From assembly GCF_013167455.1 (NCBI RefSeq), contig NZ_CP038328.1: DNA of 64,000 nucleotides. One strand, given 5' to 3'. This document shows, in pieces, positions 28,601 through 31,600 of the stretch. This stretch comes from Escherichia coli O157:H7 (GTDB lineage Bacteria > Pseudomonadota > Gammaproteobacteria > Enterobacterales > Enterobacteriaceae). Position 1 is the stretch's first letter. The number at the start of each line of letters is the position of its first letter. A program made the position numbers.

Positions 28601-31600
28601 CGTCGTTCACGAACCATCATCGCATGTGTGCGGGCGAACAGTTGATTTAGCGACTCAACCAGTGGTCGCACTTCGCTGGGTACGCCAGTCGCGTTTAGTG
28701 GTTTTTCCGAGTCAGGGTCACGCATACGTAGTGCCAGCGCCAGTTTGTTCAGCGGCGCGAGTTCACGACCCAGTAGTACCATCATGATGATTAACATAAC
28801 CGGCAGTGCGACCAACCACGGGATCAATTGCCCGGCAACAATCGCCAGCGCCATGTCTTCACGGTATTCCCATTCCTGACCAACAACGATGCGATATTTG
28901 CCATCAGGTGAGGTCATCCAGACAAAACGCCATTGATCTTTATCGCCCACCAGTTGCCCGTCAGCAAAACCTTCCCGTTGATAGCTATAGGGAATATCTT
29001 CTCCGTTATCGCCATCGTTAAGGACCATTCTGCCGTCGTGGGTAAAGATGGCAAAGGTCAGCGCATCGTCATCAACATGACCGTGTTTTAATTTATTTGG
29101 CGTCTGTGCCATGCGATCCGCCGCGTTGATTTCGTTGAGATCGAGCGTACTTAACCGCTTGGCAAACAGCATCAGTTGGGTGTCGAACAATTCATCGACG
29201 TTATCCGTTGTTTGTTTCCAGGCGACAAAGCTGGAAAGCAGCCAGGTCACCGAGGCCAGAATTAAAAAGATTAGCGTCAGCCTGACACGCAGACTAAGAC
29301 GTTGGGTAAATTTCATTTCTCACCTAATGTGTAGCCAATACCATGCACGGTACGAATAAAATCACTACCGAGTTTGCGTCGCAGATGATGCACATGCACT
29401 TCAACGGCATTACTGGTGACCTCTTCGTCCCAGGTATACAGTTTCTCTTCAATCAGTTTGCGCGGCAGTACCCGACCAGCGTTACGCATCAGTAATTCCA
29501 GCAGGGCAAATTCTTTTGGTTTCAGTGTTAAGGGTTCGCCAGCCAGCGTGGCGATACGTTTGCCGGGGTCGAGCATGACGTTACCGTGGCGCAGCTCGTT
29601 GCTGGCCTGGCCGTTGGTTCGGCGCATCAGAGCTTCCAGCCTGGCGGCGACTTCTATCAACGCAAAAGGTTTACACAGATAATCGTCAGCTCCCAGACGC
29701 AGCCCTTCTACACGTTCCTCCAGCGCATCGCGCGCGGTCAGGATCAGTACCGGCTCACGCTGACCTTTTTCTCGCCATTCGCGCAAAATATCGCGACCAT
29801 CCATGCCTGGTAAGGTTAAATCCAGGATCACCGCATCATAAGGTGCGCTATAAAGCGCCTCTTTTCCCTGACGACCTTGTGTAAACCAGTCGACGCTAAA
29901 ACCCATTTTACTAAGGCCCGTTTTGATGCCGTCGCCAATCAGCATGTCATCTTCTATCAGTAAAATTCGCATTTTTTCATCCCTGCGATAACCGTATTTG
30001 CTGCTAGTAAACCGTGTTGTAACGCGCTCTGTACAGCACTAAATTTTATTTTTTTCCCTTAAGAAGTTGTTAAGGACTATCTTGTTAAATGCTCGGAAAC
30101 AGACATTAAAGGGAGTAATAAACATGAAAAAATTCGCAGCAGTAATCGCAGTAATGGCCCTGTGCAGCGCACCGGTGATGGCAGCAGAGCAGGGCGGTTT
30201 TTCTGGCCCATCGGCAACGCAAAGTCAGGCCGGAGGATTCCAGGGGCCGAACGGCAGCGTAACGACTGTAGAAAGCGCAAAATCCCTGCGTGACGACACC
30301 TGGGTAACCCTGCGCGGCAATATCGTTGAACGCATCTCTGACGATCTCTACGTGTTCAAAGATGCCAGCGGTACTATCAATGTTGATATCGACCACAAAC
30401 GCTGGAACGGCGTGACGGTGACGCCGAAAGATACGGTTGAGATTCAGGGTGAAGTCGATAAAGACTGGAATTCTGTTGAAATTGACGTCAAACAGATCCG
30501 CAAAGTAAATCCGTAATTGTTACCGCTCCCGGGATGCGTTCCCGGGAATAATTTCGCAGGGAGGCAACATGACAAACCTGACACTGGATGTAAACATTAT
30601 CGATTTCCCATCAATCCCTGTGGCGATGTTGCCGCACCGCTGTAGGCCTGAGTTGCTCAACTACAGCGTGGCGAAATTTATCATGTGGCGTAAAGAGACG
30701 GGGCTTTCTCCTGTTAACCAAAGCCAGACTTTTGGCGTCGCCTGGGACGACCCTGCCACCACCGCACCGGAAGCGTTTCGCTTTGATATCTGCGGCAGCG
30801 TTAGCGAACCGATTCCCGATAATCGTTATGGTGTGAGCAATGGTGAACTTACCGGTGGACGTTATGCCGTGGCTCGCCACGTTGGCGAGCTGGACGATAT
30901 TTCACACACGATATGGGGCATTATTCGCCACTGGCTGCCTGCAAGCGGCGAGAAAATGCGTAAAGCACCGATTCTGTTTCACTACACCAATCTTGCCGAA
31001 GGGGTGACGGAGCAGCGACTGGAAACGAATGTTTATGTGCCGTTAGCGTGATGGGGAATCTTTACCGGAGTGTGAGCCAAATCACTCGCGATAAGTTTGA
31101 GCGAACAATGCCACAGGCGTATTGTTGTTGGGCTTATAATTTCTCCGGTAAGGAATACCATGTATACGCGAAATTTATTATGGCTGGTCAGCCTGGTAAG
31201 TGCGGCTCCTCTCTACGCTGCTGACGTTCCCACCAACACACAGCTCGCCCCGCAACAAGTCTTTCGTTACAACAATCATAGCGACCCAGGTACGCTCGAC
31301 CCGCAAAAGGTGGAGGAGAATACTGCCGCGCAGATTGTGCTGGATCTGTTTGAAGGTCTGGTATGGATGGACGGTGAAGGCCAGGTGCAGCCCGCTCAGG
31401 CTGAACGCTGGGAGATACTGGACGGCGGCAGGCGCTATATTTTCCATCTGCGTAGCGGTTTGCAGTGGTCCGACGGTCAGCCTCTGACGGCAGAGGATTT
31501 TGTCCTCGGCTGGCAGCGCGCGGTTGACCCGAAAACGGCAAGCCCTTTTGCTGGCTATCTGGCACAGGCGCACATTAACAATGCCGCGGCTATTGTTGCG

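What the first reader, a model, noticed from the sequence alone, without database searches (positions are those of the whole stretch)
31052..31159. No mqsRA toxin-antitoxin locus between ygiV and ygiS
In the K-12 arrangement as I recall it, the mqsR/mqsA toxin-antitoxin pair lies between ygiV and ygiS. Here the two genes are separated by only ~108 bp with no ORF. This points to a lineage lacking mqsRA, or a clean excision.
Basis: partly seen in the sequence, partly recalled or inferred. Interest (0 to 1): 0.35.

Follow-up and report, generated by a model that had tools for sequence, protein, structure and literature searches.

The report
Ancestral ygiV–ygiS junction lacking mqsRA
This E. coli O157:H7-type sequence does lack the mqsRA toxin-antitoxin genes that K-12 carries between ygiV and ygiS, but this is the original and commonest state of the site and has already been reported, so the finding is real but ordinary.

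Summary
In the window, ygiV (30569-31051) and ygiS (31160-32767) are separated by 108 bp with no MqsR/MqsA coding. In K-12 MG1655 the order is ygiV-mqsR-mqsA-ygiS. The window is 100% identical to O157:H7 genomes across this locus.

Base-level comparison shows that K-12 carries a self-contained 927-bp cassette (promoter with operators, mqsR, mqsA, terminator). The window has 5 bp (GGGAA, 31054-31058) in its place.

Among 5,426 complete E. coli genomes:
- 2,298 (42%) have mqsRA, always at least 99% identical.
- 3,112 (57%) have the uninterrupted junction.
- About 1,750 of those have the window's exact layout.
- 1,357 have additionally lost ygiS.

E. albertii, E. whittamii and three other non-coli Escherichia lineages all lack mqsRA here. 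The three with intact ygiS keep the same spacer at 93-94% identity, and the G-rich bases after the ygiV stop codon are kept in all five.

The empty site is therefore ancestral and mqsRA is a later insertion in the K-12-type lineage. A "clean excision" in O157 is not supported.

The absence of mqsR from O157:H7 is stated in the literature (PMC5053249), and variable toxin-antitoxin content in E. coli is well documented. Interest is low. The only mildly open item is that the conserved spacer is predicted to fold into a long hairpin covering the ygiS ribosome-binding site.

The parts
30569..31051 (+). ygiV, intact, 160 aa, GyrI-like domain protein. This is the left flank of the site.
   Evidence: ORF. 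Pfam PF06445, E = 5.7e-36. Annotated ygiV in the identical O157:H7 record.
31052..31159 (+). 108-bp ygiV-ygiS spacer, the unoccupied (ancestral) form of the site that holds mqsRA in K-12.
   Evidence: Sequence. It is contiguous in 3,112 of 5,426 E. coli genomes. It is 93-94% identical in E. albertii, E. whittamii and SCPM-O-B-8794.
31054..31058 (+). GGGAA, the 5 bp that K-12 lacks and that are replaced there by the 927-bp mqsRA cassette. This is the position of the insertion.
   Evidence: Alignment. Distances between shared anchors are 5 bp (window, RM9387, ST131) versus 927 bp (K-12, O145 RM9154). The same G-rich bases are present in the outgroups.
31059..31154 (+). Predicted long hairpin that fills the rest of the spacer. 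The outer 12-bp stem pairs TCTTTACCGGAG (31059-31070) with CTCCGGTAAGGA (31143-31154), which includes the ygiS Shine-Dalgarno sequence. The structure is predicted, not demonstrated.
   Evidence: MFE -42.5 kcal/mol, z = -3.58, 0 of 200 shuffles fold as well. The stem is kept in the consensus fold of 10 Escherichia sequences but shows no compensatory changes. No Rfam family matches.
31160..32767 (+). ygiS, intact, 535 aa, periplasmic solute-binding protein. This is the right flank of the site.
   Evidence: Pfam PF00496, E = 1.8e-84. Annotated ygiS in the identical O157:H7 record.

Best explanation
The window shows the ancestral, never-occupied ygiV-ygiS junction of the genus Escherichia, as retained in E. 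coli O157:H7. mqsRA is an accessory toxin-antitoxin cassette of 927 bp. It carries its own promoter with two MqsA operator palindromes, mqsR, mqsA and its own terminator. It was inserted once, immediately after the ygiV stop codon, where it replaced 5 bp, in an ancestor of the K-12-type lineage. It has since been inherited, and probably moved between lineages by homologous recombination of the flanks. O157:H7 therefore has no MqsR mRNA interferase and no MqsA repressor, and ygiV and ygiS are direct neighbours separated by a conserved 108-bp spacer. Shown here: the base-level boundaries, the population counts and the outgroup states. Inferred: a single origin, horizontal acquisition, and the route of integration, which left no recognisable signature.
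For: 1. K-12 order and boundaries. ygiS-mqsA-mqsR-ygiV is annotated in NC_000913. The shared sequence ends at ...GCGTGATG and resumes at TCTTTACCGG, with 5 bp between in the window and 927 bp in K-12.
2. Outgroups. E. albertii, E. whittamii and SCPM-O-B-8794 have ygiV, a 107-108-bp spacer and ygiS, with no mqsRA, and the spacer is 93-94% identical to the window's. Escherichia sp. MOD1-EC7003 and E1V33 also lack mqsRA.
3. Population. mqsRA DNA occurs in 2,298 of 5,426 genomes, all at least 99% identical and all chromosomal. The contiguous junction occurs in 3,112 genomes with 90-100% identity, so the empty allele is the more diverse one and the older by inference. All 17 sampled occupied alleles span 2,113-2,114 bp, which means the same insertion.
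4. No remnant of mqsRA is present in the window, and no MqsA operator is present in the spacer.
5. MqsRA-family modules sit on plasmids of Rahnella, Rouxiella, Pectobacterium, Yersinia, Pseudomonas and others at 66-76% nucleotide identity, consistent with a mobile origin.
6. Literature. O157:H7 'lacks this gene' (PMC5053249). Toxin-antitoxin content varies by E. coli lineage, and such systems are viewed as horizontally acquired insertions into intergenic regions (PMC7167474). mqsR, mqsA and ygiS behave as variable pan-genome genes (PMC11390585).
Against: The flanks of occupied and empty alleles are very similar and mosaic. Window versus K-12 shows 9 differences in ygiV and 9 in ygiS. O145 strain RM9154 carries mqsRA yet has qseB and ygiW identical to the window. 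Recombination has therefore moved alleles between lineages, and loss of mqsRA by replacement with an empty allele somewhere in O157's ancestry cannot be strictly excluded. Presence and absence were not mapped onto a genome phylogeny here. Only 64 kb of this genome could be searched directly for mqsRA. No integration signature (target duplication or terminal repeats) was found, so the insertion mechanism is unknown.
Confidence: 0.9

Rival explanations
1. Secondary loss by allelic replacement. An ancestor of O157:H7 carried mqsRA and lost it when homologous recombination across ygiV and ygiS imported an ancestral empty allele from another E. coli.
For: The region is mosaic. O145 RM9154 has mqsRA but qseB and ygiW are 100% identical to the window, and its ygiV is closest to that of an mqsRA-less B1-type strain. 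Occupied and empty haplotypes differ by less than 2% in the flanks.
Against: This needs an extra step compared with simple retention. The empty allele is present in every outgroup and in the more divergent ST131-type alleles. The same data fit O145 having gained mqsRA by recombination. Either way, the window's sequence is the ancestral allele and not a deletion product.
Confidence: 0.07
2. Clean (precise) excision or deletion of mqsRA from a K-12-like arrangement in the O157 lineage.
For: None beyond the absence itself. The junction carries no scar.
Against: A deletion would have to remove exactly 927 bp and recreate GGGAA, the same bases found at this position in other species. The cassette has no flanking direct or inverted repeats that could mediate precise excision. 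The empty junction is more diverse (90-100% identity) than mqsRA itself (at least 99%).
Confidence: 0.01
3. mqsRA, or a diverged homologue, is present elsewhere in this genome, outside the 64-kb window, so the lineage does not really lack it.
For: Only the window could be searched directly.
Against: A blastn search sensitive to about 65-70% identity found mqsRA-like DNA in 2,298 genomes, all at least 99% identical. Exactly 2,301 genomes have a split junction, so essentially no empty-junction genome has a copy elsewhere. The literature states that O157:H7 lacks mqsR. The window contains none.
Confidence: 0.02

Closest known systems
E. coli K-12 MG1655 ygiV-mqsR-mqsA-ygiS locus (b3023-b3020)
   Same: The flanking genes and their order and orientation are the same (qseCB, ygiW, ygiV ... 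ygiS, parC). The 101 bp upstream of ygiS are identical. ygiV differs at 9 of 483 positions and ygiS at 9 of 1,608.
   Different: K-12 has a 927-bp cassette (mqsR promoter with two ACCTTTTAGGT palindromes, mqsR, mqsA, terminator) where the window has GGGAA.
[quoted passage not shown]
   Same: A small self-contained toxin-antitoxin module is present in some lineages and absent from the same intergenic spot in others. The flanking genes are intact and functional without it, and no recognisable mobility signature is present.
   Different: Those cases were not re-examined here. At this site the module lies between two separately annotated genes and next to a conserved hairpin-forming spacer, not inside a known bicistronic operon.
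ygiV-[ygiS deleted]-parC haplotype of E. coli W, O104:H4, O103:H2 and RM9387 (1,357 genomes)
   Same: It has the same empty ygiV junction with no mqsRA. The 108-bp spacer plus the first base of the ygiS ATG (109 bp) is 100% identical to the window.
   Different: ygiS is replaced from codon 8 to its last 42 nt by a 236-bp filler, whose only other E. coli match overlaps a group II intron maturase annotation. The window has ygiS intact.

Membership tests
MqsRA type II toxin-antitoxin locus | An ORF encoding an MqsR-family toxin (about 98 aa mRNA interferase) | tested here: not met
   tblastn of K-12 MqsR against the whole window gives a best E of 1.5 over 7 residues. The 108-bp spacer cannot encode it.
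MqsRA type II toxin-antitoxin locus | An adjacent downstream ORF encoding an MqsA antitoxin (zinc-finger plus HTH, about 131 aa) | tested here: not met
   tblastn of K-12 MqsA against the window gives a best E of 1.6.
MqsRA type II toxin-antitoxin locus | MqsA operator palindromes (ACCT-N2-4-AGGT) in the upstream region | tested here: not met
   None lies in 30400-31400. There are two matches elsewhere in 64 kb (25111, 27864), at chance level with 1.26 expected. K-12 has two at the mqsR promoter.
Ancestral unoccupied site of an accessory-gene insertion | Flanks collinear with the occupied allele up to defined breakpoints, with no remnant of the cargo | tested here: met
   The shared sequence ends at ...GCGTGATG and resumes at TCTTTACCGG. 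Only the 101 shared bp of the K-12 interval match the window.
Ancestral unoccupied site of an accessory-gene insertion | The same uninterrupted junction in sister species (outgroups) | tested here: met
   E. albertii, E. whittamii and SCPM-O-B-8794 have a 107-108-bp spacer that is 93-94% identical, with no mqsRA. MOD1-EC7003 and E1V33 also have no mqsRA.
Ancestral unoccupied site of an accessory-gene insertion | The occupied allele is less diverse than the empty allele and shares one insertion point (single origin) | tested here: met
   mqsRA is at least 99% identical in all 2,298 genomes. The empty junction ranges over 90-100%. The sampled occupied alleles all span 2,113-2,114 bp. The insert is an identical 927 bp in K-12 and O145.
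Ancestral unoccupied site of an accessory-gene insertion | Presence and absence mapped on a genome phylogeny show gain on an internal branch | not tested
   No whole-genome tree could be built with these tools. Only named strains were placed: MG1655, BL21, ATCC 8739 and H10407 are occupied; W, O104:H4, O103:H2, ST131 and O157:H7 are empty. Phylogroups for MG1655, W, EDL933 and UTI89 come from PMC7167474.
Deletion or excision scar | Residual cargo sequence, truncated flanking genes, or repeats at the cargo ends able to mediate excision | tested here: not met
   ygiV and ygiS are full length. No mqsRA remnant is present. No terminal direct or inverted repeats bracket the K-12 cassette.

The most novel reading that the evidence does not exclude
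The conserved 108-nt ygiV-ygiS spacer may be a functional structured element. One reading is an mRNA leader whose 12-bp closing stem hides the ygiS ribosome-binding site. Its 5' base may also be the preferred landing point of the mqsRA cassette. If so, the spacer would be an undescribed cis-regulator of the ygiS solute-binding protein gene, and an example of a toxin-antitoxin cassette integrating next to a hairpin.
Probability: 0.1. Interest if true: 0.35.

Novelty: already known. Interest (0 to 1): 0.08.

Why it matters
It matters little beyond bookkeeping. The result confirms that K-12 is not the reference state for this locus, because most E. coli and all sampled sister species lack mqsRA here. 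MqsR/MqsA-dependent regulation described in K-12 (biofilm, the AI-2 to QseBC link, GhoST control, ygiS mRNA cleavage) therefore cannot operate in O157:H7. That point is already made in the literature (PMC5053249). The base-level definition of the 927-bp cassette and its empty site may be useful for typing or for engineering clean mqsRA-free controls.

Tried and rejected
- I looked for any MqsR/MqsA coding or mqsRA DNA in the 64-kb window and found none.
- I looked for MqsA operators in the spacer and found none.
- I looked for transposon-like signatures (target duplication, terminal inverted repeats) around the K-12 cassette. Only the internal operator repeats and the downstream spacer hairpin were found.
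- I looked for a phage origin and found no match in 50,697 phage records.
- I scanned the spacer and neighbours against Rfam at E up to 1 and found nothing. The same was true of the ygiS-deletion filler.
- The promoter and terminator consensus scan of 30400-31400 gave chance-level counts. The only site on the + strand in the spacer is a weak 5-bp stem terminator-like match at 31108-31120.
- I tried to decide from SNP patterns whether O145 RM9154 gained mqsRA by recombination. The tract is a fine mosaic with too few informative sites to tell.
- I tried to read Fiedoruk et al. 2015 and Ramisetty & Santhosh 2016, the primary papers on toxin-antitoxin distribution and horizontal transfer in E. coli. 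Neither is held, so they are cited only through PMC7167474.
- MAFFT misplaced the large gap in the first pairwise alignment. The boundaries were re-derived with anchors and by reading the sequence.

Full report
**What is at the coordinates.** The window around 31052-31159 reads ygiW (about 30124-30516), ygiV (30569-31051, 160 aa), a 108-bp spacer, ygiS (31160-32767, 535 aa) and parC (32905-35163), all on the + strand. qseBC lies upstream on the - strand. The two flanking products are a GyrI-like protein (PF06445, E = 5.7e-36) and a family-5 solute-binding protein (PF00496, E = 1.8e-84). The two mechanical ORFs that graze the spacer match nothing. A 1,192-bp probe across the junction is 100% identical to E. 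coli O157:H7 genomes such as PV15-279, where the genes are annotated ygiV and ygiS.

**The K-12 arrangement.** Reading the two sequences side by side shows that they are collinear up to ...GCGTGATG, which is the ygiV stop codon plus TG (window 31053). They are collinear again from TCTTTACCGGAG (window 31059). Between these anchors the window has 5 bp, GGGAA at 31054-31058, and K-12 has 927 bp. The K-12 segment is a complete module:
- about 200 bp of promoter region carrying two ACCTTTTAGGT palindromes;
- mqsR;
- mqsA;
- a hairpin followed by a T-run, which acts as terminator.

No direct or inverted repeats bracket it. Nothing from this module is present anywhere in the 64-kb window. The tblastn best E is 1.5, and blastn recovers only the shared 101 bp at 31059-31159. 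No MqsA operator motif occurs in or near the spacer.

**How common each state is.** Counts were taken in 5,426 complete RefSeq E. coli genomes.

| Haplotype | Genomes | Share | Source |
|---|---|---|---|
| mqsRA present (all chromosomal, all at least 99% identical to K-12) | 2,298 | 42% | |
| Contiguous empty junction (identities 90-100%) | 3,112 | 57% | |
| Junction probe matches on one side only (split junction) | 2,301 | 42% | |
| Empty junction with ygiS also lost | 1,357 | 25% | |
| Window's exact layout (empty junction, ygiS intact) | about 1,720-1,755 | about 32% | |

- The mqsRA count used a blastn setting sensitive to about 65-70% identity.
- The junction probe was 120 nt, centred on the empty junction.
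- The near-equality of 2,298 and 2,301 means that mqsRA sits at this site when it is present, and that empty-junction genomes do not carry it elsewhere.
- Every sampled occupied allele spans the same 2,113-2,114 bp for the 1,192-bp probe, so the insertion is the same one throughout.
- In the genomes that have lost ygiS, the gene is replaced from codon 8 to its last 42 nt by a 236-bp filler.
- Rare variants carry IS30 or IS1 insertions.
- Occupied strains include MG1655, BL21, ATCC 8739 and ETEC H10407. Empty strains include O157:H7, ST131 MNCRE44, W, O104:H4 and O103:H2.

**Polarity.** One scan of species-representative genomes with YgiV returned five non-coli Escherichia loci.
- E. albertii, E. 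whittamii and the divergent SCPM-O-B-8794 have ygiV, a 107-108-bp spacer and ygiS.
- Escherichia sp. MOD1-EC7003 and E1V33 have ygiV followed by decayed ygiS remnants and parC.
- None has mqsRA.
- The spacer in the three intact outgroups is 93-94% identical to the window's. This is higher than for ygiV (85-91%) or ygiS (86-89%).
- The bases directly after the stop codon (GGGAA, GGGGA or GGAAT) are retained in all of them.

The empty junction is therefore the ancestral state of the genus, and the 5 bp missing from K-12 were lost when the cassette arrived. The low diversity of mqsRA (at least 99%) against the empty junction (90-100%) points the same way. MqsRA-family modules occur on plasmids of Rahnella, Rouxiella, Pectobacterium, Yersinia, Pseudomonas, Pandoraea and others at 66-76% nucleotide identity, and none occurs in phage records. 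This is compatible with a horizontally acquired module, but the donor was not identified.

**Rivals.**
- *Precise excision in O157.* This would have to recreate bases that match other species, with no repeats to guide it. I reject it.
- *Loss by allelic replacement.* Homologous recombination importing an empty allele cannot be excluded. The region is a fine mosaic, and O145 RM9154 carries mqsRA with qseB and ygiW identical to O157. Even so, the window's sequence would still be the ancestral allele.
- *mqsRA elsewhere in the genome.* The count argument above and the literature make this very unlikely.

**What is known.**
[quoted passage not shown] It describes these systems as horizontally acquired insertions into intergenic regions with unknown integration mechanisms (PMC7167474). 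It cites Fiedoruk 2015 and Ramisetty & Santhosh 2016, which I could not read.
- An AIEC study found no MqsRA in the B2 strain NRG857c (PMC7232551).
- A mastitis pan-genome study lists mqsR, mqsA and ygiS as variably present genes (PMC11390585).

The finding is therefore real, correctly located and already known.

**The spacer itself.** As RNA, 31049-31175 is predicted to fold into one long hairpin (-42.5 kcal/mol, z = -3.58, 0 of 200 shuffles as stable). Its outer 12-bp stem pairs 31059-31070 with 31143-31154, which contains the ygiS Shine-Dalgarno sequence. The stem is retained in a consensus fold of ten Escherichia sequences. However, variation is slight and there are no compensatory changes, so the structure is unproven. 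No Rfam family matches. The mqsRA cassette sits exactly at the 5' foot of this stem. This is the only element here that is not obviously described, and I rate it a minor lead.

**Verdict.** Novelty is "already known" and interest is low.

Noticed in passing
window 31059-31154: The ygiV-ygiS spacer is more conserved across Escherichia species (93-94%) than the flanking genes (85-91%). It is predicted to form a long hairpin (z = -3.6) whose closing stem covers the ygiS Shine-Dalgarno sequence. It has no Rfam match and no compensatory substitutions. A perfect TATAAT at 31135-31140 lies inside it.
   Followed up: partly
window 27858-27966 (between mdaB and qseC): A second small presence/absence difference lies 3 kb away. 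K-12 has 592 bp here, including ygiZ (DUF2645 inner-membrane protein). The window lacks these and has about 5 bp in their place (K-12 annotation). ygiZ is present in RM9387, MB20 and O145 RM9154.
   Followed up: partly
window 19627-26930 (between parE and ygiN): A 7.3-kb island is absent from K-12, where 51 bp lie at this position. In the matching O157:H7 record it is annotated as a TonB-dependent siderophore receptor, a four-gene iron-siderophore ABC transporter and a MurR/RpiR regulator.
   Followed up: partly
L002:6614-6849 (E. coli RM9387; same in 1,357 genomes including E. coli W): A quarter of complete E. coli genomes have ygiS deleted from codon 8 to its last 42 nt and replaced by a single-copy 236-bp filler. 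The filler's only other E. coli match (93%) overlaps an annotated group II intron maturase, which suggests an intron remnant. These genomes also lack mqsRA.
   Followed up: partly
L010:5484-6062 and L012:3695-4280: ygiS has decayed independently, with different internal deletions, in Escherichia sp. MOD1-EC7003 and Escherichia sp. E1V33. The gene is therefore repeatedly lost across the genus.
   Followed up: no
L015 (E. coli O145 RM9154-C1): This strain carries mqsRA although its qseB and ygiW are 100% identical to the O157:H7 window, and its ygiV is nearest to that of an mqsRA-less B1-type strain. This suggests the cassette moves between lineages by homologous recombination of the flanks.
   Followed up: partly
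plasmid collection hits H121, H122: NZ_CP141089.1, filed among the plasmids, is a 4.9-Mb record and evidently a chromosome. NZ_MG591698.1 is a 354-kb E. coli plasmid record carrying the K-12-type mqsRA cassette at 99.8% identity, presumably on a captured chromosomal segment.
   Followed up: no
L016:29732-30654 and 39367-40405 (about window 40300-41222 and 49935-50973): In O157:H7 record PV15-279, yqhG and gpr are annotated as frameshifted pseudogenes. I did not check whether the window carries the same frameshifts.
   Followed up: no
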